A DNA stretch of 64,000 bases from Phoronis australis (GCA_002633005.1 NMRA01000199.1:530637-594636), one strand, 5' to 3'. Counted from the stretch's first letter, positions 12,091 through 61,106 are shown. Notes: generated by a model not told the origin, from the letters alone. Numbers and translations are program-made.

Positions 12091-15000
12091 TCACCAGATA
12101 CGGCCATCAGCGTATGCCGGGTGCAACAGTCTGTATTCATGACGCGCCTTTGACGCGGCAGCACTCTCTAGAATGAGAGCACCATGTGCTTCCTGCTCCT
12201 GTTTACGCTGACGCAGTCGCACCTCCATGTCGCGTCTGAAAACAAGAATGAGATGAAGTCACCGCTTCAGATTTTGATGACCTGTGAATGTATGGTGTAG
12301 AGAATTCTTAACAGCTAAGAAGGATTGTAAAAAACAGGAAGTCACAGGCTTGAGGCTGCCAGGTCAGTGGACGATGCATAGCCTTCTCAACGACTGAAAG
12401 ACATAGAAATGCGCAGATGTCACAAACTGAAGTAACATCACCCGATGAAAATAATGGGTACTTACAGCTGTCTTGCTGCCTACGGTGAACTATTCCACCA
12501 CTGAACAATCTCTAATTGTCATAACAACCATGGATTTGCAAACAACAATTACGCTCTCTTCACATGCAGTACGGTTCACAGACATTTCGCTGAAAGGGCG
12601 ATGCCTGGACTTCTAAGAAAGCTGCGGGATGTCTCCGTACTGCCGATCTATGATCTGCATCCCTTGCCAGCTGACGGCCCCTTGACATCTTCCAGGTAGT
12701 GCCTCCTTGTTGCCCATTTGACGAAATGTTCGTGAACTGTACTGCATTCCATGTACACAACTTCTTATTAAAATTTGGCAGCAGTTAGAAAACAACCGAT
12801 TCAAAGGTTGGCCAATACAAAGCTCAGCATTCAATGTAAGGCTTCAAAACCTAAGCTTAGAACGTAATAGTCACCTACAGAGGTCCCGCATTTAGATAAC
12901 CAGTTTTCTCCACTCAGTAACAAGTATCAAACTGGTTCTCAAAATCTGGGGCCTCAGTAAGTGACTGGTGCCGACTGGAAAACAAAGCAGGAGTAGTGCA
13001 CTCACTTGACCCTGGCATCTGTGTCGGGATTAATCTCATCATCAATGGTGACACTCAACTTGGAGATGGTGAAACAGGAACCAAACAGTTTAGCCTAGAA
13101 ATTGAAGAAACGTAAAGGACATGAGAAGGCTGGCAAACAATGATGACTACAGTACAATAAAAGTATTTAGTAAATCCTTTAACTGCAGTTGTTATTGTAA
13201 TAGTATAACATACTATTGACCCACATACACCACCATTTGGTGCTGAAGACATCTTCAGATGAGACATTGCAGGAGTGTTATGCACGTGATTCCAGCAAAT
13301 ACAAATGTCTTGCATTCTTCTGTCCACAAAAGTAAAGGACATGAGAAGGCTGGCAAACAATGATGACTACAGTACAATAAAAGTATTTAGTAAATCCTTT
13401 AACTGCAGTTGTTATTGTAATAGTATAGCATACTATTGACCCACATACACCACCATTTGGTGCTGAAGACATCTTCAGATGAGACATTGCAGGAGTGTTA
13501 TGCACGTGATTCCAGCAAATACATAATGTCTTGCATTTTTCTGTCCACAAAACCAAGACACGCAAAATGCAGTTTAGTGGTTGTTTTAAATAAGAGCAAA
13601 CTTATCCTGATTCAAGTGCTACTTTCAAGCTACTCACTTTTCATGCATCCAGTGAATTTCATCAATAATCATGACATTGACAACCGAAATTTTATCAGAA
13701 ATAACCCGAAGGTTAACCATTCAGATTTTTAAAATAATACACAGTGTGGTTACAATGTCAACTCGCTGAAAATGAAACACAGCTGAACTGAGCATCACTG
13801 GTCAACATGACTCATCAACCCTGCACAATTTATTAATCTATTACTTAGGCCATATCATGTTTACAGTAAGGAGTGCTTACCTGTCCCGACTTGTAGAAGT
13901 CAACAGCTCTCTGACACGAGTCTTCATCTGACATTAGAACCCAGGCAATGCCATTATTTTGTTTGGTGATGATATCCTGTGGCAGTAATAAATAAACCAT
14001 ATCATTAAGAAAAGTTTAAAACTTTTAAAAACATCAGCTTATATCCTAGCATTAAAATACATAATAAATCATCAAAATCATTTAAAGGTTTTCATTTTTG
14101 AACCTTATTCAAATAGTATTCATAAATGCATTAGGAGGCATAGTGGCACAGTGGAATAAGTGTTTGCACCCTTTACCGAAGGTTGTAGGTTCGAGTCCCA
14201 CTGGAAAACACCGCTAAACCCTTAAGTTAGATCTCTCAACCTTCTCCGTTCAGTTTTAACTATAAATCAATTAAGCATAAAAATGGTTCCAGGTGATCAG
14301 TGAAATGGGCCCCTCTGAACGGCCTGAGCATGTCTGATAAAACATATACCAGACCACCTGGAATTACTTCTTTATTTATAAGTACCAATGATTCGAGTGC
14401 AGCGCAGAAATATTTAAATGGATAGCATCTGTAGTGTGATTCACTACCTATAGAAATGTTTACGATTTGACAGTGCTATTTATCATCAATACTGCAAGAC
14501 ACTTCCATTAATTACCGATCACATGCTTGCACTACGGTAATGATAGATTGACAAGGTTGTTTTTGATCAAGACGGGTGTTCTCACACACTTTAAACTTCA
14601 ACACATGTACAACGAGATTCTGATTTTTGAGTTAACAGGCCTAAGGAAAACAATTTTGGTCATATGTCAAAAAAAACCCTTTGCTTTAGATCACTTGCAA
14701 TTATAGACTTGGTCTCATCTTTTCCCTCACTCAAATTAGAAGGACATGATTTCTGGACTTGGAATGGACAGGTATTGCTTGAAACCAAGATTGACAAGTG
14801 TTCTTGCCACGTCGGGCCATTTCATGTGCCACGTATGGTCTCAAGAGTAAACAAGTCACCAATTCTTTCCCAGCCCAGCTTGAGAAACACTTCTCATTTG
14901 AATAGGAAACAAACTGAGACAATTTGATAGGAGTAAGGGGTCTAAATCAAAGGTTTGTTTCTTTGATGTATAAATACAGGTTTATCGCAGCTTTTTGTTT

Positions 15001-18000
15001 CTTTGATGTATAAGTACAGGTTTATAGCAGCTTTTTGTTTTTTTGATGTATAAATACAGGTTTATAGCAGCTTTTTGTTTCTTTGATGTATAAATACTGG
15101 TTTATAGCAGCTTTAAGAACAAACAGTTTGCCAAGCAGACTATCACTCACCTTCATCAAGCACACTTCCTCCACATTACAGTCAACGTCCATCTCCAGCA
15201 GACCCTCCAGTTTGTTGATGGAGACACTGGATGGCAACCCAGTCATATAGATGGCCTTCTGTCTGGCTGTGTCCAGCTGAAAGTGAGACCAGCACTACTG
15301 AAGGGGTCAGAGTTGATTCATAGTATAAGAAGGAAAGCACGGGATGCCATCATAAATACTCATTGAGGTCAATCTGTTCGAATGTAATACAATACATTTA
15401 AAGACATAAGACGCTGTCAAAACGTATGACAATACATTAAAAGACAGTCAGAAAATTCTCCATGCAATATCAAAAGACAAACTGGCAAAATGTTTTAAAG
15501 GCAGATAAAAGTTGGACCAATTACCAACTCGACTTTCACAGTGCTATGCTCTCATCTGGTCACCGCACATGAGAAAACAAAAACTTACCTTAAGCCACGA
15601 GGGGGCATCTTTTTCAGATATGATTTCGTTCCATTCTGCTGATGTTAGGCGACATGCTTCATTTACTGAAACAGGAAAAAAATTGACTGCATCAAATTTT
15701 CAAACACTAATTCACTAACTTAATCTACGCAAACCTCTTAATAACAGTTTTATAATTCTTAGGCACCACAGAAAAGCCAGGTAACATTAAGTAAAGTAAC
15801 ACTGAAGAGAAATTTCTGGAGGGATGAACACACTCAGCAGGTCATTCTAATAGAGGAAAAATACAAAAACTAACCCAGGGACATGTCAGAGTTTTCAAGT
15901 GTTATTTCTTTACAAAACACTTGATTTCTACCAAAACAATAGAGCAGGTGATATGATACAAACTGCATCAGACATACGCACGCCGCTCAGCTGGGCCCAT
16001 TGCACCTGAAACTATCTCCAAACCCAGCAATTGCTTTTGAAATGTTATCACAAACAAAGCTTACCATTCCTCCTGAGGTGGGCTCCCAGCTGCAGGGCTT
16101 CAGATAAGGACAGCCATGGCTTCCTCTCCAAACTGAAGTCTGTGATGAGGGCAGCACTGTCTAAGCGACTACCCAGGGGGCCTGTGAGTACATATGCAGT
16201 GTGGTAATACACATCAGGTTTCAATGCATCATAATAGACAGAAAAACTCCTTGAAATTGACAATGTAGACAAAAAACAGCACACAAATTGCAAACTGAAA
16301 ACATCAGTTATGAAATAGATGACTAACCAACAAAATAGCAATCAGAAGAGTGCACACGAAAATGAAATTTACCATGAGTGTGTAATTACATATCAAATCA
16401 AAGAGAATTCATTCCAATATCAAAAGCTTCAGTTAAAAAATGCCAACAGCATTTCAGGGGTGATTTCCATAGAAGCAAAAAACTTGCAAGATTAGCTACC
16501 GTGATCAGGTGCTTTGCTTGTAATGCATGGTGATATCTCACAAAGACTTGCGCGATCTTGCGTATTGGCAAGTTCTTTGCATCTACAGAAAGCACCCCAA
16601 ACTAGAAAACTGGATGTAATAAAGGCATGAGAAACGACTTATCCCACTGCAGTCTCACAGTTAGTTATCGAACAAGGGAAGGTAAAGCCTGATCTGGCCC
16701 TATCCAACAGGTCAGTACTCACCAGGTACCCCTCCCAGTCCACTCAGGTTGACCAGAAGGCCATCCGGTAGAAGTGGTAACGGCACTGGGTAGTGGTCGT
16801 CGCCACGTTGTAGCATGTTGTCCTCCAACTGGCTCACTTCATCCACGACAGTTGAATCAAAGCCTGTAGCAAAAAGCATAAAAATTCAATAACTAGAGGA
16901 AAAGGCTTGAGTCCTGCATGTACAGCACAAGCCAAAAGGCTTGAGTCCTAAATGTACAGCACAAGCCAAAAGTATTCAGACAAAATGACTCGGAATTCCC
17001 CGTCATGACGGAGGATGGGACTCAAATTCCCCGTCAGAGTAGTCTCCCCTGATGACCGTCAATGAAGAGGAATTAACAGGAAGTTGCTAAGGTGGATGAG
17101 TCATTCTGTAATTAGAGTTCGTGTCCCTAATAGTTATTACTAGCAATCTGCGCTGCAAACAGAATTAGCAGCCGCGACAGGAATACAGTATTTCGTCAGA
17201 TTAATTTTGTCTTGAACTGTTCATTCCCAGATTTATAAAAGGACAAAATGAAAGCTGATTTTAACCAAAATAAGAACCAAAGGACACCCAGTCTTTCATA
17301 ACACAACAACATACAACTTGAACGTACAATATTTCAAAATTCCAACATTAATTCCCTGAAGTTAGGGAATGTGTCCTACCATGGGTGTACATTATATATC
17401 ACGCATAGCAGTACAGAAAACTGTGTAGCCTGCAGTCATGGGTACTTGGATATCTAAATATGTGCTACAAACCTAGAGTTTTGGCCAACTTGACAAACAC
17501 CTCGTTCATATCTTCTTCATCAAGCTGTGCATCCTGATTGTTGAGTCCCAGTTTTTTCAGCGGGGGTCTTCCCAGGCACCCCACTAAGGCAATTAACCCC
17601 TCTTTGCCTGCAAAGAACATCAGGTAAAATTGCATTCAAATCATCAGTTAAAAATAACGGGTATCAGTCATGTCATTACAAAAACACAACTCTGATACAT
17701 CTGTGACAGCCGGACAGTAGGGAAAACATGATGGTTGAACTGCTGCCCAGACATGTTGGTATCGTACATCGTTGTCGGAAAATTTTGAATATTTTAAATT
17801 ATTTCAGTAAGTTGTTTACTTAATTCACAAGATCTACAGATTTAGAATTTTAAGGCAATGTTTCCATTATGAACTTGGAAGTCGATAACTAATTAAGGGT
17901 CAATGCATGAAGCAAAATTCAGTGCATCAACTACCCACCAATACAGTTGTATGGAAGAAGCAATGTCTCTATGCTACTGGTGCACTTGTCGGTGTGGAAG

Positions 18001-21000
18001 ACTTGACTAATGGCTTTAGCACCGTCACACCCTATCTGCAAAAGAGAACTACTAACGGTGAAATAGATTATTCTGATGGTTTTGAACTGTGATTTGAGTT
18101 GAAAAGATCTTGAACTTGTAATTTACAACAATTTTAGATAAAGGTACATTATACTGGTTGCTATAACATGAATCAGAAGTTCAATTAATTTTCACTTTTA
18201 TTTAAATGACACTTCAAAACAGAGACACTAAGACAAAACCTTAGTAAAACACTGACCGGACAGGTTTGTTTTTGGAGACAAAAATTGACACACCCATGAA
18301 CATTTTTGAATTCTCTCATCAATATCCATTCTCAAACTAATGTTGTGTTGGTTTGTGTGATGTCACGACAAGGGTTGGCGTATTTGACTGGTCGATTGTA
18401 AGAAGTGACCAATCAAATTCTCTGACTCTTGTCGTAAAGTCACACGCACCAATCAAACGCAACACCAGTTTTAGAATGGATGCTGACAAGAGGATCTGAA
18501 AACCTTCATAGATACATCAGTTTTCGTCTCTGCGAAAAAGAACCCACACACTCAGCGTATCTCCGAGATGGATGAAATTACTTTGTGATTCAAGTGAAAC
18601 ATTAAAAACAAACATGGCAATTAAAAAAATAATAAAACTACAGGACAAGTTTTAGTAGCTATGTGGTCTTATTACACTAAACTGAGTTTATTTATTTATT
18701 TATTATTGTGATATTTAAAATAAGGNGACTCTTGTCGTAAAGTCACACGCACCAATCAAACGCAACACCAGTTTTAGAATGGATGCTGACAAGAGGATCT
18801 GAAAACCTTCATAGATACATCAGTTTTCGTCTCTGCGAAAAAGAACCCACCCACTCAGCGTATCTCCGAGATGGATGAAATTACTTTGTGATTCAAGTGA
18901 AACATTAAAAACAAACATGGCAATTAAAAAAAAAAAAAAAACTACAGGACAAGTTTTAGTAGCTATGTGGTCTTATTACACTAAACTGAGTTGGAGATAA
19001 ATACAGTAGTGCAGCTGCCATGACGATTAAACAAACCCCTTACTCTGTTGTTGGACAAGTCAAGCCTTTCAAGAGGGTGTGCACCACCCTTTAACAAGGC
19101 GTTGGACAGCTCCACTAATCCAGCGTCTGTGAGCCTGTTACCACTCAGTTTCAGAGTGTGAGCCCGCAAGCCTTCACTCAGGGCCCTTGTTAATTCTGTC
19201 AAATCGTTGTCAGCAAGAGAACAGCCACTGAGACTGAGAGAGTCCAGTGTACATGATGAGCCTGAATAAGAAGAAATGAAGACGTCAGATTTATAGCAAC
19301 TTCCAACCAATGATTTATATATAAATCTCTACATATTAAAGCACACAAAGATGTAACAACTTTTAATTAATAACTGATACAAAGAAAAAACACAAAATTA
19401 TAATTACTGCACAACAGCCTGTCACTTATTTCTAACATTCAACGAAAACAGGCCATAATCCAAGAAAATAAAATGGAAACAACTCAAAATATCTAACATA
19501 TACAACACGTGGCTTTGCATGCAAGTATTATTTTTTCTTCTAAGGGTTGCATTTCAAGTGTGTCCACTGGGTAAATACTGGCACTTGAATTGCAGCATTT
19601 AGCACTTAGTTCAAATCCCTGCAGTTTGAGTACTAAATTACATTTACTACATCTCAAGATGTGTATCACTCATTACACAATCCAGCAATGCCACTTAATA
19701 TATTAATCTAAGCCCAACTTTTTCCAAGCATAGCAGCCAAAACAACTATTTTCTTAACAAATCGTTTGCGACAACAGCTTTGGTAAAACAAGTGCAGTCA
19801 TGTTCAAACTTGCTACTCAATACAATGGCGCAATACTTCATAGTTTGGATTGTCGACGTAATGTCACAATAGGTAATGACTGCAAATTTTAAAAGTTAAA
19901 AATAAATAAATACTGTACCAAATAGTTTCCCCAGTGCCTGTGTTCCTGACAGCTTTAGTCCATCTAAGACCAGAGTACTTAGACATGGCTTTTGCCCTGA
20001 TATATACGTCGACAACTCGGGGAGACTGCCTGTCGACATCTTAACCTTCCTTAGGTTCAAGAGGTGCAACTTTGGCCAACGTCCAGTTTTAAGCTGGTCA
20101 GCTACACAACTGGCATCGTTGGAGCTTAATGACAATCTTTCAACATTGCTGAAACCGGTAGAACGGTCTGAAAAGATGAGAGGTATATGGGTGGGTTGGC
20201 AAAATATGCCTCCATTTATACGGTAACACAGACTCATTTTTTGAGATAACTGCCTTTATCTACAAAACACATCGCCAAGAAAAAAACTTCTAGGAAATGG
20301 GTACCTGTCACATCAAAGTAGTAAGTAATATAGAAACGAAGGAAAATGATTGGAAACCGATTACGGGCAATAGACTCTGAGCACCATGGTCGTTGTCACA
20401 TTCAATGCATGTTTTTGGCCAGTTTCTTGTTACTGCTTGTCCCCAGCCCATGTTGTGACAGGCTTGAATGCTCTGACGAGTTTGGTGTGACAGACCCATA
20501 CTGAGTATCTCTTAAAGTGGCTGTAAACTCGTCTTCCTTCATAAAATTCAACTTTTTATTTAGACCACTCGCTGGTATGAAACTGGTCTGAAATTGTTCC
20601 TTAATCAAATTAGATGTGACTTTACAGCATTGAAAGAATTGACCGTTTGTTATTGCTCCAAGACCAGGCACTACAAGTTGGCTTGTTGTGGCATCTTTCC
20701 ATGCACCAAGCATGACCTCAAGAGAAACTGTCTGTTGTTTTCAAGCCCAGAAGAAAGGCAAGACCAATTTTATAGCAGGGAATGGTCTCAAACAAAAGTT
20801 TGCTCTTATGACAAAACACGGGTTTACACCGTAAGTTTGAACAGCTCTTTAACACTTCGCTGTGTAGATGAGTGACACTAAGTGTATAAGTGAACGTGTA
20901 AGTCATCTGTAAAGTGAAGTTTTATAAGCCAACTGCTATTGTGCTAAAAATTTAGGGAACATAGTCGAGTCTCTATTGGTACTGTTCCACGTAACTGACC

Positions 21001-24000
21001 ACAGAAACCTTGAACTTACCCCCGGTGGCATCAAACAGAGCATCCCAGGCCTGACTCGTCAACAAGGGGTTACTTTCCAAGTTTACATCTGTCAGCAGTG
21101 TCAGCATGCCAGCAACGCACTGTGCAAAGGCTGTCACGATGTTGTTTTGGAGACCATTGTTGGCCACACTTAATGAACGTAGGTTGCTAGGGCTGGTGCA
21201 GGATGGCAGGCAAGCTGAAATCAATCACATGACATATATCCGGTCACACAATTTGCGACTGGCACCCCAGCTGCAGCACCCCGATTTTAAGGTTGATGTG
21301 TTTTGTTATGAAAACTGTGTTTTGGTCCAATTATGACAAGCTAATACTCCAGTGTAATAACTTGACTGAAGCAGAAATAAGTTCACAGAGGAGTCTATCT
21401 GCCTCTTTACATGTCACAGAATCTTTTAGTCACAGATTATACAAACCACTGTCTGTGCACTTGAACTTACAGACATCCACTTCTCCTGGCTGAGTCACTT
21501 TCATGTTGTCACAGATAAGCTGGTCCAGCGATGGCTTATCCGCGCACACAACGAGGAAGCGCAAAAACGCAGTAAACGAATGGACCTACAACCAAACGAT
21601 GAAAAGATATACTGAATATCATTGGTTTCACCACTCGACTTATTCAGTAATTGTCTGAACACAACTGTTAACAATCTATTTAACAGCGTGACTACAGATT
21701 TTCCGTGACAAAATGTCTCAAATTCAGGTAGCAAGTGAAATTTTATTTTCACATTTTTTACATAAACAATAAGATGCACAATCTTATGCTTTAACACATT
21801 CAGTTCTGAATCATTGCTAGAATTTGACAATATTTTTCAAATGTAGGTAATCAATAACAACAATGTTATAAGAATTCGAAAAAGGAAAGGGACAATTTGG
21901 GCATTTACTTTTGTCCGGAATTAGAGGGACTTTACGGAAGTTGCATTCGTTCACTAGAATGCCCCTCGTGCACAGTCAATTACACCCAACAAGTCAAATT
22001 TCCTTGTGCCAAGAGCTGACATTTGTAGAAAACTCACTCCTATTATTACTTGGATGGGCGCGAAGAATCAGGGAATACGAGTAGCAAATACACCATTACT
22101 GCTATTTTCGAGCAGACATTTCCAGCTGTGTTGAGCGCTGCACTCGTTGAACGATAGCGAACAAGTGTTTTATAATCTCTGATGACGATTATCTAAATAG
22201 TAATCGCTTACTCAACAGACATTTCTGTGCATGATTCGTGCAATTTGAGCATTGATCTCACAAAACAAAACCTAATAAGAACCAGAAGCAGGGACTACAA
22301 CTCTAACCATATACAACAGTGTTCTATTTTCTGGTCACAAACCGGCATCAACAGTAACATGGCATTTGTAGACAAAGGACGACAGAGTGCAGTTTGAAAA
22401 TTATGACTGATCATCAACTGCACTGTGTTAAAATGATTTCTGTTACACATGTTGTATTTCTTGTCTTGCACATCATTTGACATAAACATTTGATGCTTTC
22501 AGCTTATCTTACAGGGCCTCAATTTTTGTGAGAAGTATGGTAAGTTAGTGCAATAATGCCGAACAAATGACCAACCAAACCTTAGCTCTGCCAAACAAAC
22601 GACCAACCGTACCTTATTTCCACTAACGTTCAGTGCAACGAGCGTGTTGTTTGAGCTTACAGCGTCTATCAACAAGTCGAAGGCATCTTCACACAGGCTG
22701 CAGTTCTTGAGTTCAAGGCAACTAATGGAGCACAGCGGGGCCTAGAAAAGGGTGAATAACGAAGTCGCGTTATTTCAATTTACAATTTCATAGTTGCACA
22801 GTACTGCACAGTCTTTATTGATTTTACTTAACTTTACCAATAAGGTAATTCTTCACTTACTTTTCAGAAAAAATCCAAGAATGCCATTTTTTCAAAGGCG
22901 AACAGACATGCTACAAATCATCAAAGTTTGCAAAAATGTCAATTTGTGCCAACTGCACATTTACAAATCATGAAAATAATGAGTAGAATTTTCTTAATGA
23001 CTATGCTTGTTGAGAAATTCAATAAAACTGAAAGTGAATAACACAGGAAGAATTACCATAAATACAACACAGAATTCATCTGCTGTTTAACAACTTTGTT
23101 TTAAATGGTGTTTAGTTTCATTTTCTATGATTTTGGCTCTCATGTTTCACTTCTAACAAGGATAATATCAATTAAACCTGATGACCGAACAAAAAGAAAT
23201 CAACTAACATAACTTGACTGCTCACAAAAGGAAATTCAAAAAAGTTTGTGGGGAAACTGCTACTGTCACCAAAAGCAGTTTGTGACTGCTCATTATCTTC
23301 GGGTCAGAGGCACCTTTATCGCTCCGGTTGAGCAAGATCTCCGGAGATTCTCTTGACGAAAAGTACTCTTTTGGTCCTCATTTATCAACACAAACATTTC
23401 ATAATGCGTCATTCTCCGTAAATATCTGTTAGAATGGAGTTACCAGAGTAGCCCTCAGCTTAAGTCTAACAGAAGGACATGTTCAAGGCAATAGTCTGAT
23501 ACAACGTGCCCATATTTTGAGAACTAGTTAGATGGCTGTTATTCAGAGGAGAAAACTGATTCTCAAAATTCGAGCACGTTATATAAGACCATTACCAAGT
23601 TCATAGCACTTACACGGATGTAACTGGACAATTCTTGACCCACGACCTCACTGGTTAGAGAGTTGTTGCTCGTGTCAAGGTGACGCAGGGTATGGTTGTC
23701 GTGGACGTGTCGAAGAAATGCAGTCAAATCTGTACCTCCACAGCTATTGAATCTATCACAATTGGAAAAACATATTACCATGAAACCTGTACAAAAAGCA
23801 AATGGTACAAATTGGCTCACATTTCACTATAATAACTACAAACAGCTAAAATGACTAATTTAGGGTATGTTTCATGAAAAAGTGACTTCAGACTACAAAG
23901 AGAGGGATGGAGGGAGGGAGGGACGGTGGGAGAGAGCGAGGGAGGGAGAGAGGAAGGGANNNNNNNNNNNNNNNNNNNNNNNNNNNNNNNNNNNNNNNNN

Positions 24001-28056: not shown

Positions 28057-28199
28057 TATGTATCTGTAATCAAAAGTGTGTATAAAATGGAAGCTCAGTT
28101 CCTCCTACGGGGTTATGCTTTTTGGTATCATTCAGGCTACTTCTCCCCGCCAGAGGATGACGTCAAGCTACTTGCCGTGTGCAGTGTTAAAAGTGGCCA

Positions 28200-50800: not shown

Positions 50801-53800
50801 ACCTATCTTTCTTTGTTTGCATTTTACTGCAGGATTCTCTCTGTATTTTGCTTCCGAGTCCTCTATCTTTATAATTGCTGCATATCCCTCTGTGTTTGTA
50901 TATTGCTACAGGGTCCACTTTACTCGTATATTGCTGGCGGGTCCTCTATCTTTGTATATTGGTGCAAGACTCTCTGTTAATGTTGTTCCAGCTAGGTCTC
51001 TCTGTGTTTGCATATTGCTGCAGGACCCTCTCTCTTTGTATATTGCTTCAGGGCCTTCTATTTTTGTAAATTGCTACTGGATTCTATGTGCTGTAGTTCC
51101 TTCTCTGCTTATTGCTGCAGGACCCTTTCTCGTATGTTGCTTCAGTCTTCTATCTTTGTATATTGCTGGAGGACTTTCTGTATATTGCTGCAGGTCCCTC
51201 TGTGTTTCCAAATGAGGGGCCAGTTGACATTCTAGTTTACAGCTAGAACAGTGTATTTGATATTGGAGCTATAATTCATTATTGATTGATAGTTACAGCA
51301 GCTATTTTTAGTGTTGGTTAGGAATTGATACCGTGACGTTTGATCCATATTAATTATCAGCAGGGTGACCAGCCACCACACTGGTTTAATATTTCCTGTT
51401 CATTTCCCACAGGCTCTGTCAGCCAGCCTTGCAATCTGCAGAAACTCAACTTTGCGGGCAACAATGCCAACAACGTCCATCTATTCCTACACTTCAACCG
51501 CTGTCCAGGGGCCACCTACGTCAACTTATCGCAGTCCAAGATGTCCGGTTCCACCCTATACAATCTTCTTCCATGCTCGGCTAATGACAAGGATTGGGTT
51601 GACAATGGCTGCAGTCACGTGGCGACGCTGGTGTTGCAAGGTGTTCTGTTGACTGACGGGGAAATCATGTGCAAGACATTCGGTAAGAGAATCTTGGTGT
51701 TGTTTCTTCTGGTTTTACCGTCTTTGGGCTAACGTGTTGTCCGTAAGCTAATCATTGGAGACCAAGACAAGGAGTTTTTCGTTCGCGTGATGGTTAAGGT
51801 GTGCTGCCATATTCTGCCTGGGCAGCAGTGAAATGGATAACGTTTTGAAGTTAAGAACAACCCATTCTCTGTACCCTTCACTGTCATAACCAGTCATTGG
51901 ACGCAATTAATGTCTGAGAGGTCAAAATACCCACCTAATGTGATGAGGTGGTGTAGTAATCACTAGCAGTTGGTAGCATGTCCTCACCATTCCTGCCAGG
52001 AGAACCTTCTGGTGTGGGCATCTGATGGTGATACAGTGGAATTGTGATACTTAATATCATACCAAATAATAGGATATCTCGGTTATTGAAATGACATGTC
52101 ATGGTTTATTGTCATTAGAAATTAAGAACATTAATTCACATGTCGTGCTTCTTATCATTTGTACCATTGCTTTAATTTCTATCTAAAAACCAACAGTGGC
52201 TAATGCATTTGAATTTTTGGAACTCGGTGCTAGGTTAAAAATCAGTTGTTTCCTGTTAAGCTGTCTTGTTCTGACTTCCAAAAGGGCTGAATTTGAACTG
52301 TAGAGCCATCATGAGTTTAATGAATAACAACACGTGCATTGTAAGCTAATGCAAGACACTCCTCACTTGGAAAGCATTGTTTTCTGATAAGTTCTCATAT
52401 TCTTCATTAATTTATAATGTAAAGTTGTCTAAAAACTCATCACTTATAATGAGCAGTTTATAAGAGCAGTTACATCATCGCCATGAAGTCGGAACCCGCC
52501 TAATGGCATATCAAGGTCACTTTCATAATTTGCTTGGAAACTGCAGAATTGGAGCTGGCTCCAATTTATGATTTGAAAGACCTTAGGTAGTCCTTTGTGT
52601 TTCTGAGATTCTACAGTTTTTCATGTAGTGCTTGTTTTTCATTCACTGTCTTATGTGTTACTTCCTTGACAGGTCGTTGTCATCTGGCTAACTTGCACTT
52701 GTCCCATCTGGACATGTCTGCGTGTAACCTCGGCAACAGTGACATGCGACAAATTGCCAAAGCGATGCAAATGAAGACGGTGCCATTAGTAACTCTAAAG
52801 CTGTCCAACAACTACATCGGAGATGACGGAATTGGTCATCTTGTGTACGCACTGTTAGACTCCAACACACTGCACAGACTCAATCTGAGTCACAATAAGG
52901 TACATCACAAATTTCTCTTATTTAGTTTCAACTCCAGATGGCAGTGATTTCCAAATTCTGGTATCAATCTAGTCGATCGCATAGTCTTTTTTCCACATCA
53001 CGACTTGCACACCAGTTATCTACCACGATTAAGGTAAATGCGACTGTCGTGACTGAAATACTGGTAAACAAACTGAATCCTATTAAATCATTTTGTCTAA
53101 TTTTTATCGTATTTTTCAGGTCTGCAGAAAATAATCCTAATGGTAATTCTCCACTTGTTTTGCACAAAATAAATTTATTTTTCTGACAGTTGGTTTGTGT
53201 GAAATAGACTAAACAATCATACAGACTTTATGGTTGATGGGAATGTAACTTAGTAACCAAGCGTTGCTAACTTCGAGCATGCAAGTTTAATGAAATGCGT
53301 GACCTTTGCATTGACAATGTGCTATCAGCTAACAGTGATTAAGTTACTGTTCCAAATATTAAAGTAATTTACCATATTGTTGGTGAAACACTCTATTGAG
53401 GAAATTCCCCTGGGTCACAGGACACTTATGTAGGTCACCCCTTTCACCTCACATTTAAAGCAGCATGATGTATTCCATATGAACGGATGAATTAAGTGGT
53501 TAATGTAATACTTAGACTTTATTAACACAATTAAAAACAGGGTGTTTGTTACAAGGAGTAACAGTAGGGCTTTGCCTGCAATACTGACCACCTTGTGATT
53601 TAGGTGAGCCAAGATATTCTGGCAATGTGAGTGAGGGACAAAATAACTGAGGGACAAAATAAAACTGAGGGACAAAATAAAACTGAGGGACAAAATAAAA
53701 CTGAGGGACAAAATTTTAAGAGTGCGAAATGAGGTGAATGGGCTAAATTAGTGGAGAATTATATAGCAACCTTATTTTTATGAGAAATTCAGTGCCTGAA

Positions 53801-56800
53801 ACCAAGCAGTTAAAAATAACTAGTTTCATTGTATGATATTGAATTTATTTGAGCCTGTGTTTTATTGCTGTAAAGCCATCACTACACTTATGCCCAACTC
53901 TACACAAAAGGAACTTGGATCAGTGCTAGCGATTAGCAGCATTGATGACGCCAGCAATTGTACAATGAAAGCTGTTAATGGAGTACAGGGTGCTGTGAAA
54001 TGGATCGAATTTATAGTGAGGATGGCACATCACACTTCTGAGATGAGTCGAACAAGTCGAGAACCAAAAAAATTATGAATAGCAAGAGTCGTGTAGGCAC
54101 GCGGCATTGTGGGTAAATACCATAGAATTAGAGAGGGCGCTGTTGTATCCTTGGTAGTGGTTATTAACTCGTTAATCACATCCTCGTGGGTAGTATTATG
54201 TCAAATGTTGGCAACGTGGTAAGTCGAGTTGTTGTTACAGTGATATTCTGGCCACACCCTTTCAGATTCAGGACCGAGGAGCGCAGATATTGAGCTGCCT
54301 GTTTGACCAATGGGATGGCAATAAAAACCGCATTCAGTCACTTGACGTATCTTGCAACTGCATCGGTAAACACCACATTGGTTAACATGGATGTTGTTTT
54401 TAATGTTTTGTTCTTCATGATTCAAGTTTCCGCGACTGCGCTGCATGTCATATTCAAATGGTCTTGAAAGTTTACAAAATAAGTTAACGTTATTCACACG
54501 GTGATTTGATTCCAATTTGAATTCACATATTCATCATCATCTTTCCTGGTAAGTTTGCCCGGGCTACATATATTGTTGTAACGTTGCCAAGCAAGTATCA
54601 TCTGTTGCTATAGCAACATTTTCAAATTCACATTGCCTGTTGCAGGTGCCAAAGGTGTGTCTGGTTTGCTGAAGGCTCTTGTCTCCGGTGGTAGTCTTAC
54701 TCGGCTAGATGCCAGCGATCAGAAGCAGAGGCATTTCTCTGAGAATGACCTTATGGGCATATTCAGGAAGCTTGCCTCAATTCTAGGTCTGTTTTACTGC
54801 CAGTCCAAGACATCAATATTCACGTTGCCTGTCTTATGATGTATAATGTGTTTTAAGCAGTTCAAACGCTTCCCTGTTTGACAGGCTGTGTTGTAAGGAA
54901 ATGACAGTGCAACTGTCTGGTGAAACAACATTTTATGCTTTTGTATCAAATCTCTTACAGTCACGTTGGAATTTGGATTGCCTCATCCTTGTCTTATATG
55001 CACTAAAAGCAGATTACTGTAGATTTCCATGTGACCTTGTCAGGATTTTTTTTCTCAAAAACATCTATTTGCAGACTGAAATTAATTTGTGTCCAGAAAG
55101 CCCTCAGGGGCTCTTTCTGAACAAAAGAAGTGGGGTTCTTTTGATAACTTGTATTAGCTACCATAGCCTCATTGGACTTGAAATGAAAAAACCTGTATTA
55201 ATCAATTAACGTTGAGCTCTTAGCTGCAATTTGTGGTAGTGGTTTGAATTCGTCACCATTTTGAGTGATTGACACCCTCTTATTGGACAAGATATAAACA
55301 TATTAAGTGAATCGGGTAACGTAGAAGAGTTGTATGGTGGCACCTTTGTTTACATTTCATGGATAAACTTGAAGTAGCTATCCCTTTAAATACCAATTGT
55401 GAAAAAATCATAGCACTTATCACATTTTTCATACCTTCTTACCATGGTAAAAATACACAAAGATCTTGAGAGAGCCTCTATAAGCAGGGCTTTTTGGGTC
55501 CTTGTTTCCACAAGACCCCCCATGGTGGTTTTTGTTTAGGGGGGGGACTCTTTTGGAAATTCCTGATATAGCTGAAAATAGACTGTGGCTCTGTCTTGTA
55601 ATGATAGGGACTTAAAAGAACCAGTTTTTCAAGTAGTACTATATTCATGGCACTAGAATCTTGAAACCAGCTCAGTTGACTTTCCAATTTGAATTTGAGT
55701 TGTTGCTATCTTGTAATAGTATTGCTTAAGGGAATGTAAGCGTCTGTGATTTTTGTGTGCCATTGTACCATGTGTTGTTGAAGATTGGTATCAATAGCAT
55801 AAGTATCATTCACCTTTAAATTTGTAAGTTTTCTGCATATACGAGAACAGACGTCTTGTAATTTTGTTATTTATGCTGCGTGTTTGCTGCAGGGTTTGGT
55901 ATGCGTACCTATGAATCTCTGCTGGTACGGGGCAGCTGTGACATCCCTCCTCGAATACCTGCAGAGTTGAGTGTCGACGTCTCCCAGCCGCAACGTCTTG
56001 GAGACAAAGAGTACCTCTGCTTCAATGGAGGTCAGTTATTAACCAAAATAAAGCCACAGTCTGCAAGCTTTTAGTAAGCGTCCATGTATTTGTGTGGTCA
56101 CATGCAGATGTGTTCCTGTCCTATTGTCTGGCAGTCCACTTGGTATCTCAAAAACCCCCTGGGATCTTGATGAAGGTTGGCTCAATGATGTAGGTCATCA
56201 CTAGGGCAGTGCATATCACTTTTCACTCTGTCCCAGATTGATGGATTTCGATGAAACTTGACACAGAGATCTATATGTGACGGCAATGCCCAGTAGCACC
56301 AGTCAATTTTTGGGGGATTTGGCCATTGCAGCACCCTCTGTTGACCATTTTGACCCCGACAAGGGGTTCTTCGCTATTTTTGTAAGAAGAGCGTTGAATG
56401 ACATCTAGAATGCCGCTTGATGGGTTTTAGTGAAATTTGACACGGGATTATGCATTGGCAATGTGCCAGCACCAGTCAATTTGTGGGCAGATTCAACCAC
56501 TGCTGCACCCCCTGTGGCCATGTTGTCCAGTCGTCTGCTCCATATCTCAAAAAAACCCTGGTCTTATTTTGACAAAATTTGCTACAGTGGTACACACCAT
56601 CAATAGGGTGGTGGAGGCCACTTTTTAATCTGTCCTTCCCCATGGCCAGGGGGGTAGGAATTTTGTTATTTTTTATGCAAGGACATTGCTGGATGATGTC
56701 TAGAGAACTGATTTACAAATTTTAATGATATTTCATACAGTGGAGGTATGTGATGGCAGTGCACCATCACTGGTTGCTTTATGGGCAAATTTGGCCACCT

Positions 56801-59800
56801 GTCGAATGGTTTTGATATTACGAAATGAATTGAATGAATTGACCTTGTCAATAGGCAGCAGAATGTGATTATTAGAAGCGGTTTTTGTGCAGTCGGGGAT
56901 GCCTGATATTGGCCGCTTAGACATTCCAGTTCACTTCATTTCAAGAGAAAGGGATTAATTAATAAACACTATTACTCTATCTCTGAATTAATGAATTCTT
57001 AGCCATACCTTGCCACAGTGTGTACAGTTTGTCTCAATATTGCAAGAGGCTATAGAAATTTTGTATAAAAAAGGTAAACAACACTGAGCAGATTGCCAAT
57101 TTACATACGGTGTCCTTAAATAAGTTTAACCATGTAAGCTCTAAGTATAGAAATTGTCATTCTCAGTGCAATTTACATATTAGGTTACATCTAGTATCTG
57201 TTTTCAATATGTGATGTTAATTGTTGGTCTCGGCTTAATGTCTAAATGAAGTTGGGCTTGCATTATTCCCCTCATTTTGAAGGTTTCCTCGGCCAGGTGC
57301 TAGATAGCCAAGCCATAGTGACCGGCTTCAGCAAGTTCACTAGACCATACCTCAGTCTTAACCAGGCACTTCAGCTAGCCATGGGCCTAGGTCACCCTGC
57401 CTCTACCGATGGAAGGTTTATGACGGACACTGGGCATTGGAGACAGTTCATTCAGCTGGGGCAAGAGGAACCCCCCAGGTGGCTTCAGGTGTGTTATGTA
57501 GTACCTTCATTTCTGAACAAAGTCATTGTATGGTAAAATCTCGCCAATTTAGGAGACAATTTGGCCGACAGTCATTCTCACATTTTTTCATGAAAAATAT
57601 GTTAGCATCAAATTAATGCTTAACTCTGTTCAAGTTCTGTGGCCTGTTTCGGCTAAGAAAACTGGCTTAACTTAGTCAAATTTTAAACTGAAATTAATTT
57701 TTAAGATAAGACTTAAGTTTGTCTCGTGTCTATTCCAAGAAACTGATCTGAAGTTTTTGGCTTAAGTTTGATGCATCTTAAGAGATATGGAAGTTTCGAA
57801 GTTTGAAGATTGAGACAAATCTTAGACTTGAGTCAAAAATGAAATTAGTTTGGTTTCGTGGAAAGGGCCCCTGTACCATAGCCACCATTAGAAAATATTT
57901 TGATAAAATGTGGGCATTCACAAAAAAGTTAGAAGACTTTGAAAAAAGAAAAATGGTAATTTTGGCTCTATTTTTGTCTAAAATCGTTGAGATTTTTGTC
58001 AGGTATGTTCCCTTGTTGGACCAGTATACAGGTTATGGTTATATCGGTCCTCATTTGTGTGTCTGTGCATTTTGCCAAAGATTTTCAAAATAGTAGATTT
58101 TGACTCGGTGATGATATGGAAAGCCTGTAGAATTTGATTTCAGTGTGTACCAAATTTCTTGCATTAATTGTTTATTTATTAGAAGTTAATAAAAATATAC
58201 ATTAATAGCAAAACAATTATTTAGTAACACGATCAAATTTTATTATCATGTATAATAACATCAAGTTATCTGTGATGTCATCGTATGTTTACCAGCTGTC
58301 AGTCATCCTAAGTTGCGTTTGAAAAATGACAACAGTACCACTTTTGAGTTTTTTCATGAAAACCATAAAATTTCTATTGTTTGATAGCTGTACGTACTGA
58401 ACTGCAATATTCTAAAAACAATTCATAACAGAGTTATATGGAGCAGTGCATATAGCGTTGTATCTGAAAGTTTTGTATGAATCCAATCAACCATTTCTGG
58501 ACATGCAGTTTCGTGGAGTCCGAGGTAGTCTTAATTCAGATACTTGACTTTTGCTTTTAGGATATACAGAGCCGTGACAAGCTGCGGCGTCTGCTCTACG
58601 TGTCCAACATGGGTAGTAAGGTGTCGTACAACAAGTTGAAGGCCATGTTGAGAGAGTATGGCTGCGAGATTCAGCACTTTCACCTGATCAGGGTAAGGAC
58701 ACTGTCTGGTCACTCTGACCATGAAAGTATGAATACTGTAGGTGCTGCATCAGCACCTGGGGGTGTTTGTATAATGAAACTGGTGTATGTTATTAAATTG
58801 GTCTGTGTCTTATAAGTTTCTAATTTTTGTGTAAAGTTGTTCCTTTTTGTTGGTTTTTAATATTTAATTAGTTGTCCTGAGATGGCCTTGATACTAGTCA
58901 TTTGCACCCTCCAAAAACCCGAAATGATTTCTTAGACCTGCCCTCCTTCATAAAAACAAACTTGATTTAAATAATTTACCAGTGTGTAATTGGTGTCAAA
59001 TTGTTTTCAGCCAAAATAGATGTGATTTGTGGGGTTGGGAGTAACTAACAGTTGGTTATTGCCTGAGACAAGGCTCTACAAGTCACGTCATGTCACGCCA
59101 TGTCATTTAATTTGCAAAGCATGGTCTCAAGCAGTAGTGAACTGTACGTTCTTCTTAAGACCAAAACTCACTTCTTGTCGTTCTAACGTTTAGCAAAAAA
59201 AAAGAAAGCTATACAGCAAAACAATGTTTAGTATCAATAACATTACCAAATTTCATTTGAAATGAAGGTGTAAGATGAAATCTCAATGTTGTAGTTTTTT
59301 TGTTTCATTGTTGTTTTACGCCAGTTTTCATTTTTTTCAAAAAAATCAAAAAAGTCCTATTTTGATAGCCCTCCTGCAACAGAGGAAGATTTTAAAAACA
59401 ATTCCTGTCATAGTTTTGTAGAATAGCACATAAAGCAATGTTATGTTAAAGTGTCATGATGATTCAATACAATCAGCCATTTATGAGATATGATCTTCCG
59501 TAGTTAGCCAGATTTGGACATTTTCTTAATTGAGCACAGTTATTGCGTTGTGACAAAACTTTACTCATTGTGTTGTCCACATGATAGTACAACCTGCCTG
59601 ATGGGGAACTGAATGGAGTAGCTTGGCTGATGTTGGCTAAAGACATAGATGTAGAGAGGATTATGGAAATGTGCAGGGACGGCAGGGTGAGTGTGCGTGT
59701 GTCCTCATACAATTTTCCATGATACACTTGATGGGAAATTCAGCGACTCCAGGAAAAATATAGTTATGTCAGATTCTTACTTTTTGGGACACAATGTGAC

Positions 59801-61106
59801 GGGCTGAAAGAATTCCTGTTCGTTGAATTCCTGAATGAAAGGAAACTTCACTTGGTTGTTAGTATTTTGTATGTACGATAGAACTCAGACACTAAACAAA
59901 ATTAGGATATTTATTTTGTGCATTTACAGTAAGAATTTGATAGATGGCAATTTTAACAACACATTTGGTCCCAAGTTTTATGGTGGATCTCTATTAATAC
60001 TAATGGTTGGGAGTCGGTTAACATTTAACAGCTTTTGCCATTACGGCGTTTTCCCGTTGATCCAAACTTGTTCGATTCTGTAGCCCAACAACAATTTGGG
60101 AAGATGACCCTTGTAGCCAATATCTTACACAACTGATTAACTCTATTCTGGCATTTCTGAATTCCTCGTCAAATGCTGATCATGTTTAGTTCTTGAATCA
60201 CCAAAATCGCCCAACTACAACCGAAGTTACAACTATTACAATCCAGTCTTTCTGAACGTACCAATTTGCTCTGGGTTTGACTGTGTTGACATGTGGCCTG
60301 GTAGATAATTGGCCTGCCTGTTGTCATACAATACAAAAGACTGTGCTTGGCAAGTAACAAAGGAGCTAAATGTTATCACAGGCTCATAATCCTCTACGTC
60401 TGGTAAAGTCACTGAACGGGAGAACGCTGTCATGATTATTTTGTTAATAAATTGTGCTGTGAAATTTTGGATTGTCAACATAAAGCATTAATACAGTCCA
60501 TGCTTTAGTTGTGACTTGTTTCTTTGATTCACATCGTATGTATACCAAACTGTTCATAGAATGAGTACTTTGGAATGTACATGAAGCCCATTTGTTCAAA
60601 GGTCATTGATTTGGCTGTAGCTAAGATGGTCATAGTATGTTTTTGCAAAGCCAAGACTGCCTGTTGCATGAATGAAACGATTAGTACTGACGGAGGTAAA
60701 TGTGATAAAGTTCAAATTCAAGCTCACTCGCATGTATCACGTTGAAGCATTACTGAACAAAAAGTAAGACAGTCATCTTATCTTTGACTTTTTATGGTCT
60801 ACAAGAACCTGGGCCATCAACACTCTCAATGGGTAAAAATGTTTGTCGATAGCAACAAACTGTTTGGCGATTTAGCACTGTAGCCGGAAAAGGACGGTGA
60901 CACGTCTTTCAACCTTGCATGCCAGATATCCCTGATGTCCTTGACAACCAATTAGTGTTTTGTGGGTTTTATGGAACAAGTGAGGCAGTGACATTGGTGT
61001 GAAACATACATTTGTTTCCTTGTAGACAATAGTGGATGGTGAGCCAGTATTGTTCTCCCAACTTGAGCTCAAATTTGTGAAGGACCTCCAACATGTGATA
61101 AGGTGA
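36980..61106 (+). CDS. Gene B: paralogue of gene A; putative N-myristoylated protein with a very long disordered N-terminus, an RNI-like LRR solenoid and a C-terminal RRM-like domain (about 2439 aa, 17 coding exons; 3' end uncertain)
   Basis: Exons, all GT-AG with consistent phases and 7320 nt in total: 36980-41897, 42704-42867, 44419-44544, 47186-47322, 47918-48059, 48858-48983, 49948-50065, 50524-50718, 51413-51682, 52673-52899, 54266-54365, 54646-54786, 55893-56030, 57283-57488, 58561-58692, 59588-59686, 61026-61106 (TGA, or a donor at 61102). LRR examples: TLCWLDVSGNNLG, PLVTLKLSNNYIGDDG, TLHRLNLSHNKI. RRM-like motifs: LLYVSNMG and LNGVAWLML. Confidence 0.82.
43248..43600 (+). mobile_element. 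Degenerate dispersed repeat, possibly Helentron/DINE-like non-autonomous; related copy at about 62488-62700
   Basis: Both copies share TTTT...TGCCGTCATCTCCGT...CGGCATC heads followed by CATAAAATTTGG-type motifs; 56100-56925 has a similar texture. The family assignment is tentative. Confidence 0.35.
47398..47612. repeat. Degenerate tandem repeat with a unit of roughly 35-40 bp
   Basis: Recurrent GTACCC...GTGGTAGTGAGGATCCATTGA-like units. Confidence 0.6.
50720..51210. repeat. Degenerate minisatellite with a unit of about 30 bp, in gene B intron 8
   Basis: Recurrent TATTGCTGCAGGACCCTCTCTCTTTGTA-like units starting right after the exon 8 donor. Confidence 0.8.
53632..53714. repeat. Tandem repeat, about 4.5 x 18 bp
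   Basis: TGAGGGACAAAATAAAAC units. Confidence 0.95.

What the first reader, a model, noticed from the sequence alone, without database searches (positions are those of the whole stretch)
12091..61106. Head-to-head pair of ancient paralogues with an unusual architecture: lipid anchor, disordered region, LRR solenoid and RRM
Seen: two divergently oriented multi-exon genes whose LRR and RRM exons correspond one-to-one in phase and often in length (126/126, 137/137, 195/195 nt). The best exon pair is 25/46 identical (ACLGKMLSTNCTLEYLDVSDNYLGKDYFS vs EPLGELLQKNSTLCWLDVSGNNLGKTDFS). Both begin with MG-x-G-A-x-K and end in an RRM-like fold. I saw no NACHT/P-loop, TM segment or signal peptide. Known: RNI-like LRRs occur in NLRs, RanGAP and the ribonuclease inhibitor, and head-to-head pairs are typical of co-regulated sensor/helper immune receptors in plants. 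I know no characterised family combining N-acylation, RNI-like LRRs and a C-terminal RRM. Inference: a co-regulated pair of membrane-tethered RNA-binding or RNA-sensing scaffolds that pipelines would probably mislabel as NLRC3-like.
Basis: partly seen in the sequence, partly recalled or inferred. Interest (0 to 1): 0.85.

Follow-up and report, generated by a model that had tools for sequence, protein, structure and literature searches.

The report
Membrane-anchored LRR-RRM gene and inverted duplicate
Two expressed, back-to-back animal genes encode an unstudied protein type, also found from corals to sea urchins, that joins a likely lipid anchor, a horseshoe of leucine-rich repeats and an RNA-recognition-type domain; one gene is the conserved form and the other is likely a faster-evolving copy that lost the conserved tail, and nothing found supports a paired immune receptor.

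Summary
Both genes are real. RNA reads show 12 of 17 introns of gene A (minus strand, 1176 aa) and 14 of 16 of gene B (plus strand, 2439 aa). They are paralogues: 30% identity over 834 columns and 14 shared intron positions. A belongs to an unnamed family with relatives in corals, molluscs, a ribbon worm, an annelid, a sea urchin and an acorn worm (36-40% identity). MGxxxS starts 12 of 14 intact relatives. B has no orthologue in my capped searches, a branch three times longer, no tail, and has lost the acidic face of its RRM while keeping the two aromatic residues of the RNA face. Best reading: a myristoyl-anchored scaffold whose RRM likely binds RNA and is latched by a tryptophan tail, plus a derived duplicate. 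The sensor/helper immune pair idea is unsupported: no nucleotide-binding or effector domain, no family expansion seen. The age of the duplication is unresolved.

The parts
12091..28056 (-). Gene A, 18 coding exons, 1176 aa: the conserved, family-typical member
   Evidence: Exons 28056-26857, 26312-26187, 24881-24745, 23752-23614, 22741-22613, 21585-21471, 21214-21020, 20167-19919, 19261-19044, 18035-17939, 17607-17473, 16863-16723, 16181-16065, 15665-15589, 15276-15151, 13976-13881, 13094-13006, 12235-12091; 12 of 17 introns seen in RNA
26857..28056 (-). A exon 1: MGCG start (Gly2, Cys3; likely myristoylated and palmitoylated), acidic disordered region (about aa 1-345, net -31), helical cap of the LRR (about aa 346-400). 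A splice acceptor lies 7 nt before the ATG, so the 5' UTR exon is further upstream
   Evidence: (depth 20-33 on the expected strand in X1); the matching region of a relative has pLDDT under 50
17473..26312 (-). A exons 2-11: ribonuclease-inhibitor-type LRR solenoid, aa 401-913
   Evidence: Pfam LRR_6; model of the Lineus relative, about 20 strand-helix repeats; Foldseek best match RNase inhibitor 1dfj_I, E 1.9e-15
15589..16863 (-). A exons 12-14: conserved family-specific linker, aa 914-1025, ending in W..I...PxWL
   Evidence: 14 near-invariant columns of 112; a profile of this linker found the family
13006..15276 (-). A exons 15-17: RRM (about aa 1030-1114) with invariant RNP2 Tyr1035 and RNP1 Trp1079 and an acidic helix 1
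12091..12235 (-). A exon 18: long helix and the near-invariant C-terminal tail HPAYADGRIW
   Evidence: 13 of the last 21 columns near-invariant; 16 of 16 complete A-type ends fit [HN]PAY[AT]DGR[IV][WF]
28057..36979 (.). 8.9-kb stretch between the two start codons: CpG-rich (observed/expected about 0.8-1.4 over 29-35 kb, against about 0.4-0.6 inside the genes) and full of dispersed repeats. Likely holds both promoters and 5' UTR exons, which were not mapped
36980..61106 (+). Gene B, 17 coding exons, 2439 aa: divergent paralogue without the tail
   Evidence: Exons 36980-41897, 42704-42867, 44419-44544, 47186-47322, 47918-48059, 48858-48983, 49948-50065, 50524-50718, 51413-51682, 52673-52899, 54266-54365, 54646-54786, 55893-56030, 57283-57488, 58561-58692, 59588-59686, 61026-61106; 14 of 16 introns seen in RNA
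36980..41897 (+). B exon 1: 1639 open codons; MGTGASK start (fits MGxxxS), low-complexity region with basic patches (net +43). An acceptor lies 19 nt before the ATG
   Evidence: only 41600-41897 was laid with RNA (covered, and reads run on upstream)
42704..54786 (+). B exons 2-12: helical cap and LRR solenoid, aa 1640-2221
   Evidence: 28-39% identity to A by segment; Pfam LRR_6
55893..57488 (+). B exons 13-14: linker, aa 2222-2336
   Evidence: 35-38% identity to A
58561..61106 (+). B exons 15-17: RRM-like domain; keeps the RNP2 Tyr and RNP1 Trp, lacks the acidic residues of helix 1 and the tail
   Evidence: alignment score to A's RRM 92 against a shuffle maximum of 49 in 500; RNA joins 59686 to 61026; no tail-like exon elsewhere in the window

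Best explanation
Gene A is the local member of an unnamed marine-invertebrate family that is likely anchored to the inner face of a membrane by an N-terminal myristate and is predicted to hold an LRR horseshoe and an RRM on a long flexible tether, where the RRM likely binds RNA and its back face is likely latched by the conserved tryptophan-ended tail; gene B is likely a faster-evolving inverted duplicate that lost the tail and the latch surface. Shown: both genes are spliced and expressed, they are paralogues, the family is conserved in six animal phyla, and B lacks the tail. Predicted from a relative's model: disordered tether, RNI-type horseshoe, RRM fold, long C-terminal helix. Inferred: myristoylation (motif kept while the neighbouring sequence is not), RNA binding (two of three stacking aromatics invariant), the tail-on-RRM latch (tail and acidic RRM face are lost together in B), and a scaffold role in which the LRR recruits a protein partner to membrane-held RNA. 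The head-to-head layout is read as the trace of a local inverted duplication that leaves both genes under shared regulation, not as a sensor/helper pair. I put the identity and family part at about 0.9 and the mechanism at about 0.4.
For: Splicing and strand. Paralogy: E 3e-89, 14 shared introns. Family: 8 of 9 hits of the linker profile (the ninth, P0008, is an unrelated repeat) and 15 hits of the C-terminal profile, from Cnidaria, Mollusca, Nemertea, Annelida, Echinodermata and Hemichordata (species; phyla recalled). All 15 near-full-length relatives are 36-40% identical to A, 26-36% to B by best local alignment (28-31% over the aligned core), and carry A's tail. MGxxxS in 12 of 14 relatives with an intact start, beside a region with 7% mean identity; MGxxxS is the myristoylation motif and Gly2/Cys3 gives dual acylation (PMC6678300, passages). 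Model pLDDT 81.6, pTM 0.77. RRM: profile match to ZCRB1 E 6.8e-7 and Sex-lethal E 1e-4; rmsd 1.3 A over 83 columns to 5mmj_v; Z 12.7, rmsd 2.4, 95 aligned to U1-70K. RNP2 position 2 Tyr and RNP1 position 5 Trp are in 16 of 16 A-type sequences and in B; position 3 is aliphatic, as in the ZCRB1 and Sex-lethal RRMs. B keeps 58 of 70 near-invariant cap, LRR and linker residues but only 10 of 22 in the RRM (Fisher p 0.0014). The losses include Glu1049, Glu1053, Asp1057, Glu1062 and Asp1068, which are acidic in 16 of 16 A-type sequences. Junction reads, X1/X2/X3: A 344/272/34 over 12 joints, B 484/459/4 over 14 joints (summed).
Against: No binding, lipidation or localisation was measured. A-type RRMs are net acidic (-2 to -5 in 16 of 16), lack the basic residue at RNP1 position 1 and the aromatic at position 3, which the review PMC5113200 (passages) lists as needed for RNA binding. 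A's own start has Gly, not Ser, at position 6. The models are of relatives (Lineus; a coral transcript), not of A or B, and I could not inspect coordinates, so where the tail packs is unknown. The latch idea was formed after seeing the alignment, and B's RRM may simply be decaying. The age of B is open: the tree joins A and B with only 89/87 support, the AU test does not reject B beside the corals (p 0.11), and B is as similar to the coral protein (30.6%) as to A (31.3%). Searches for B orthologues were limited (one search read proteins up to 2000 aa and only 7995 candidates). Co-expression rests on three samples of unknown tissue from one study.
Confidence: 0.45

Rival explanations
1. Protein-only scaffold: the RRM is a UHM-like module that binds tryptophan peptides (its own tail or a partner's) and not RNA; the protein is a membrane-anchored adaptor, possibly in cilia or sperm.
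For: Acidic helix 1 and net negative charge in all 16 A-type RRMs, an aromatic residue in the helix 2-strand 4 hairpin (Phe/Tyr at 1103 in 15 of 16), and an invariant Arg-x-Trp/Phe end resemble the UHM-ULM features in PMC5113200 (passages). Dual acylation targets several ciliary proteins (PMC6678300, passages). Axonemal LRR proteins (LRRC34, DRC5, RSP15) are among the LRR matches.
Against: No RXF arginine; the RNP2 aromatic, which diverges in confirmed UHMs, is invariant here. The axonemal matches cover only the LRR part (profile positions up to 746 of 1016). No solved chain matched linker or tail. No X-box-type site lies between the genes (motif recalled).
Confidence: 0.3
2. Co-regulated sensor/helper pair of innate-immune RNA or RNase sensors that heterodimerise, by analogy with paired plant NLRs.
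For: Head-to-head layout with 8.9 kb between start codons; both genes high in X1 and X2 and low in X3; RNI-type LRR as in NLRs; B is asymmetric and fast-evolving, with 7 of 9 displayed codon differences between RNA and genome changing the residue against 6 of 17 in A (Fisher p 0.10).
Against: No P-loop, NACHT/NB-ARC or death-fold/TIR domain, whereas paired NLRs need the nucleotide-binding domain and carry an integrated domain in one partner (PMC9528088, passages). Both genes carry the RRM. Other animals returned one A-type locus each and no B-type partner, with no sign of the expansions usual for immune receptors (that expectation is recalled).
Confidence: 0.08
3. B is a relaxed, drifting duplicate with a tissue-restricted role unrelated to A's, and the pairing has no functional meaning.
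For: Long branch, loss of tail and of half the RRM invariants, a 1639-codon unalignable first exon, and about 100-fold lower junction counts in X3 against about 8-10-fold for A.
Against: B keeps an intact 2439-codon frame, 58 of 70 invariant cap, LRR and linker residues, both RNP aromatics and a canonical MGxxxS start, and is expressed at A's level in X1 and X2. This reading is partly compatible with the best explanation.
Confidence: 0.15

Closest known systems
Uncharacterised invertebrate proteins XP_064645883 (Lineus), CAH1788691 / A0A8S4P307 (Owenia, 'RRM domain-containing protein'), XP_077996942 (Glandiceps), XP_078360294 (Oculina), XP_021355179 / A0A210QLM1 (Mizuhopecten, automatic name 'Ribonuclease inhibitor') and others
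   Same: Whole architecture of A, 36-40% identity over about 850-950 residues, same tail, MG start
   Different: None of these has B's form (no tail, 1640-residue N-terminal region). None was found in print by the identifiers I searched
Ribonuclease inhibitor (PDB 1dfj, 1a4y) and the LRR parts of NLRP5/NLRP14/NLRP3, LRRC34, CARMIL1
   Same: RNI-type horseshoe; best fold match E 1.9e-15, TM 0.77 on the target; best sequence match E 7e-45
   Different: About 20% identity, LRR only. RNase inhibitor has no other domain, NLRPs have a NACHT domain, and none of these matches extends to the linker, RRM or tail
Canonical RRMs: ZCRB1 (2e5h), Sex-lethal RRM2 (1b7f), HuD (1fxl), U1-70K (4pkd)
   Same: Fold, RNP2 Tyr, aliphatic RNP1 position 3, long strand 2-3 loop; the U1-70K match also covers about 20 residues before the RRM, but the top rows are tied
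   Different: Trp at RNP1 position 5, no Lys/Arg at position 1, acidic surface, single RRM behind an LRR and a likely lipid anchor
U2AF homology motifs (UHM) and their Trp ligands (PMC5113200, passages)
   Same: Acidic helix 1, low charge, hairpin aromatic, a conserved Trp-ended peptide in the same protein
   Different: No RXF arginine, RNP2 aromatic kept
Paired plant NLRs such as RGA4/RGA5 and RRS1/RPS4 (PMC9528088, passages)
   Same: Head-to-head genes, LRR domain
   Different: No nucleotide-binding or signalling domain; extra domain in both partners
NXF1/TAP and the U2A'-U2B'' pair (recalled, not tested)
   Same: LRR and RRM act together on RNA
   Different: Short LRRs of another class; RRM precedes the LRR or is a separate chain; nuclear, no lipid anchor

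Membership tests
NLR / NLRC3-like STAND receptors | NACHT or NB-ARC domain with P-loop | tested here: not met
   No GxxxxGK[ST] in A or B; Pfam finds only LRR (and a weak RRM) in 4 of 4 relatives scanned; none in the model
NLR / NLRC3-like STAND receptors | RNI-type LRR solenoid | tested here: met
NLR / NLRC3-like STAND receptors | N-terminal effector domain (CARD, PYD, death, TIR, CC) | tested here: not met
   First exons of A and B have no Pfam match above cut-off; residues 1-132 of the relative are disordered
Paired sensor/helper NLRs | Head-to-head genes with a shared stretch of hundreds to thousands of bases | tested here: met
   8.9 kb between start codons; transcription starts not mapped
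Paired sensor/helper NLRs | Integrated domain in only one partner | tested here: not met
   Both carry the RRM; the tail is private to A but is the ancestral family feature
Paired sensor/helper NLRs | One-to-one functional dependence | not testable with these tools
   needs genetics or co-immunoprecipitation
Ribonuclease inhibitor | Protein made only of about 450 residues of LRR | tested here: not met
   A 1176 aa and B 2439 aa with four further regions
Ribonuclease inhibitor | Tight binding of RNase A family enzymes | not testable with these tools
   no assay
Canonical RNA-binding RRM | Four-strand, two-helix RRM fold | tested here: met
   Models of two relatives; rmsd 1.3 A over 83 columns; Z 12.7, rmsd 2.4, 95 aligned. 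B by alignment to A only
Canonical RNA-binding RRM | Aromatic at RNP2 position 2 and RNP1 position 5 | tested here: met
   Tyr and Trp in 16 of 16 A-type sequences and in B
Canonical RNA-binding RRM | Aromatic at RNP1 position 3 | tested here: not met
   Ile/Leu/Val/Ser/Thr in all; Val also in ZCRB1 and Sex-lethal RRM2
Canonical RNA-binding RRM | Binds single-stranded RNA on the sheet | not testable with these tools
   no assay
UHM (protein-binding RRM) | Acidic helix 1 and low isoelectric point | tested here: met
   A-type only: positions 1049, 1053, 1055, 1057 acidic in 16 of 16; net charge -2 to -5; B keeps one of the four
UHM (protein-binding RRM) | RXF motif between helix 2 and strand 4 | tested here: not met
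   Phe/Tyr at 1103 in 15 of 16, but Arg two places before in 1 of 16
UHM (protein-binding RRM) | Degenerate RNP2 aromatic | tested here: not met
   Tyr invariant
UHM (protein-binding RRM) | C-terminal helix masking RNP1 | tested here: inconclusive
   A long helix follows the RRM in both models, but its contacts could not be inspected
N-myristoylated proteins | MGxxxS start | tested here: inconclusive
   Met in B and in 12 of 14 intact relatives; A has Gly2 and Cys3 but Gly6; 5' UTR exons not mapped, so an upstream start is not excluded

The most novel reading that the evidence does not exclude
An animal family, kept from corals to sea urchins and so far unstudied, is a self-latching RNA sensor at membranes: the myristoyl anchor and tether place an RNase-inhibitor-like horseshoe and an RRM at the membrane, the invariant Trp-ended tail docks on the RRM's acidic back as a switch, and in this genome an unlatched copy (B) has become its divergently transcribed partner, giving an NLR-free sensor/helper pair.
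Probability: 0.1. Interest if true: 0.8.

Novelty: new variant of a known kind. Interest (0 to 1): 0.5.

Why it matters
All parts are known folds, but I found no description of a protein that joins an acylation start, an RNI-type LRR, an RRM and an invariant Trp-ended tail (paper searches; open-access library only). The family has kept this layout at about 38% identity across six phyla, so it does something that selection has held since the split of corals and bilaterians. Databases label it 'uncharacterized' or, wrongly, 'ribonuclease inhibitor'. If it tethers RNA to a membrane, it would be an unusual route to local RNA control in marine invertebrates. The A/B pair offers a natural experiment: B lost the tail together with the acidic RRM face, which points to the surfaces to mutate. 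The pairing itself is probably an ordinary local duplication.

Tried and rejected
No whole genome is held, so synteny beyond the window and copy number could not be checked. The run search listed no RNA holder; three raw-read runs were laid instead. Word-based protein searches with A exon 1 and with a three-piece linker alignment found nothing; the full HMMER search did. A candidate B exon at 60560-60628 was dropped because RNA joins 59686 directly to 61026. Homodimer test of linker, RRM and tail: no answer, score 0.00, neither support nor evidence against. An A-B heterodimer was not tested. ESM Atlas: no usable hit for the C-terminal part; only generic LRR clusters at 0.81 or less for a whole relative, which names PF27087 as LRR_TMOD-LMOD, a generic LRR model. 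The VIA and Foldseek lists were filled by the RRM, so the linker's fold is untested. X-box scan: 6 matches in the window against about 1 by chance, none between the genes; not pursued. Synteny with MCC: no MCC-like exon in the 23 metagenome loci, but these hold at most 10 kb downstream and 4.4 kb upstream (L016), too little to test either neighbour. Tree: P0004 (partial) was left out. Paper searches for the architecture and for 12 identifiers and PF27087 gave no relevant paper (one search listed one TLR review, seen as a listing only). Supplements were not searched and may list these genes. Rejected: gene-model artefact (RNA), pseudogene (open frames, expression), NLR membership (no NACHT), membership of the UHM family (no RXF).
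Full report
OBSERVATION. The window is animal-type DNA (about 40% G+C, CpG-poor except between about 28 and 35 kb). No whole genome is held. Reading the sequence I modelled gene A on the minus strand (ATG 28056, stop 12091, 18 coding exons, 1176 aa) and gene B on the plus strand (ATG 36980, stop 61106, 17 coding exons, 2439 aa); both are single open frames with GT-AG introns. Three stranded RNA-seq runs of the same species label, from individuals a few percent different from the assembly, were laid on 11000-30900 and 41600-61500. Displayed joints match 12 of A's 17 introns (66 rows hidden) and 14 of B's 16 (35 rows hidden), on the expected strands. Not among the displayed rows: A 26857/26312, 24745/23752, 22613/21585, 21020/20167, 16723/16181; B 41897/42704 and 48059/48858. 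All five A introns have a counterpart in B; four of these counterparts are RNA-supported and the fifth (48059/48858) is not displayed. RNA corrected my first model of B: exon 16 joins 61026 directly.

PARALOGY. A and B align at 30% over 834 columns (E 3e-89), from a helical cap through LRR and linker to the RRM. The RRM parts alone score 92 against a maximum of 49 in 500 shuffles; the N-terminal regions do not align. 14 of A's 17 introns coincide with B's in place and phase. Junction reads summed over the displayed joints are A 344/272/34 and B 484/459/4 in X1/X2/X3: the genes rise and fall together, but this is three samples of unknown tissue from one study.

FAMILY. Two word-based searches found nothing. 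A profile of the linker, led by B's exon, gave 9 hits among 1.84 billion representatives, 8 of them family members. A C-terminal profile gave 15 hits among 7995 scored candidates of 418-2000 aa. Named sources are Oculina, Actinostola, Haliotis, Mytilus, Crassostrea, Ostrea, Pecten, Mizuhopecten, Ylistrum, Solemya, Lineus, Owenia, Diadema and Glandiceps, all 'uncharacterized', 'hypothetical', 'unnamed', 'RRM domain-containing' or, once, 'Ribonuclease inhibitor'. All 15 near-full-length relatives are A-type: 36-40% identical to A, 28-31% to B over the aligned core, and ending in A's tail. No vertebrate, arthropod or nematode protein appeared, but the searches were capped, so absence is not shown. 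No B-type protein appeared.

ANATOMY. AlphaFold2 on the Lineus relative (15 sequences) gave pLDDT 81.6 and pTM 0.77: residues 1-132 disordered, about 20 strand-helix repeats, a small linker, an RRM at 814-892 and a 46-residue helix. Foldseek ranks ribonuclease inhibitor first (E 1.9e-15). Sequence matches to solved structures stop at the end of the LRR. The C-terminal profile matches RRMs of ZCRB1 (E 6.8e-7), Sex-lethal and HuD. A separate model of a coral C-terminus fits RRMs at 1.3-1.9 A in the best single-domain rows and U1-70K at Z 12.7, rmsd 2.4, 95 aligned, tied with other RRMs. The most conserved segment is the tail (13 of 21 columns near-invariant, mean identity 77%), then the RRM (50%), then the LRR (27-42%); the disordered region has 7%. 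MGxxxS starts 12 of 14 intact relatives and B; A has Gly2, Cys3 and Gly6. A, B and a coral gene (L016) all have a splice acceptor 7-19 bases before the ATG.

RNA OR PROTEIN BINDING. The review PMC5113200 (passages) names aromatics at RNP2 position 2 and RNP1 positions 3 and 5 as needed for RNA binding, and an acidic helix, an RXF loop and degenerate RNPs as marks of protein-binding UHMs. The family is in between. Tyr (RNP2) and Trp (RNP1 position 5) are invariant in 16 A-type sequences and B. Position 3 is aliphatic, as in the ZCRB1 and Sex-lethal RRMs aligned. Helix 1 and nearby positions are acidic in 16 of 16 A-type sequences, net charge is -2 to -5, and there is no RXF arginine. B keeps 58 of 70 near-invariant residues outside the RRM and tail but 10 of 22 inside the RRM (p 0.0014), and the lost ones include five invariant acidic positions. 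Loss of the tail together with this face suggests, as an inference made after seeing the data, that the Trp-ended tail docks on the RRM. The same review notes atypical RRMs that bind RNA and a Trp peptide at once.

AGE OF B. The tree of the conserved core (17 rows, partial P0004 left out) sets A and B against the rest with 89/87 support, with end branches 0.88 and 2.73. The AU test does not reject B beside the corals (p 0.11). A and B share seven introns that a complete coral gene lacks (L016), which would date the duplication after the split from corals if these are gains. But a cnidarian-like fragment (P0007) appears to break at one of them, so coral losses are possible; L011 and L012 show four of the seven in other animals. 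Displayed codon differences between RNA and genome are 11 silent and 6 changing in A, 2 and 7 in B (p 0.10; only the best-supported rows were shown, with different thresholds). On balance B is more likely a derived, accelerated copy than a second ancient family.

COMPARISON. Paired plant NLRs are head-to-head, need a nucleotide-binding domain and carry an integrated domain in one partner (PMC9528088, passages). Only the layout is shared. The proteins are not NLRs, not ribonuclease inhibitors by architecture and not UHMs by motif. An earlier, unchecked note of this scan (e1-676113) describes protist proteins with an E2 domain, an RNI-type LRR and a C-terminal RRM, so LRR followed by RRM may not be unique to this family; I did not test a relationship. 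Six paper searches for the architecture and identifiers found no description; some searches were seen as listings except for the three papers read in passages (PMC9528088, PMC6678300, PMC5113200).

VERDICT. Observation confirmed, with the tail added. An undescribed, well-conserved invertebrate family with a new combination of known domains; the mechanism (membrane-tethered scaffold, RRM likely binding RNA, tail latch) is inferred at about 0.4. The head-to-head pair is probably a local duplication. Interest 0.5.

Noticed in passing
window 8075-8317 (-): Exon with a Ser-rich run and an EF-hand (Pfam EF-hand_6 E 5e-4, below cut-off), downstream of gene A on the same strand. It resembles the start of the long MCC isoform (recalled, not tested against a database).
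   Followed up: partly
window 57390-57419 (+), B aa 2305-2314: B's linker holds HPASTDGRFM, which resembles the tail that B lacks (7 of 5000 shuffles score as high). One of 14 relatives has a similar chance score in its disordered region, and the test was post hoc.
   Followed up: partly
window 29178-30116: Foldback repeat: 275-nt arms, 97% complementary, 389 nt apart, with further copies at 28425-28533 and 33710-33962; likely a non-autonomous DNA transposon. Reads pile on both strands there.
   Followed up: no
window 33062-33202 and 31225-31274 against 35413-35442 and 35952-36091: Short inverted matches (74-80%) between the regions upstream of A and of B; more likely repeat fragments than relics of the duplication.
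   Followed up: no
window 13100-13560 and 18440-18990: Near-identical two-copy tandem duplications inside introns of A, one with an N at the join; possibly assembly artefacts of a heterozygous genome.
   Followed up: no
window 43265-43459: Intronic repeat in B with very deep, mostly one-strand RNA coverage in all three runs (mean depth 113-159 in the bin); likely an abundant SINE-like or mobile element.
   Followed up: no
window 45676, 48037, 52724, 53245, 54604, 27547: Six X-box-like palindromes against about one expected; three lie in coding exons, none between the genes (motif recalled).
   Followed up: partly
L016 11567-11983: The coral copy in this metagenome contig has an in-frame stop at the invariant RNP2 Tyr codon; a sequencing error or a broken allele.
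   Followed up: no
L011 234-1368: A 30% G+C animal locus shares A's introns around the RRM and its Asp-Ile-(Ile/Leu)-Thr variant where most relatives have Asp-Pro-Val; it may come from a lineage closer to this organism.
   Followed up: no
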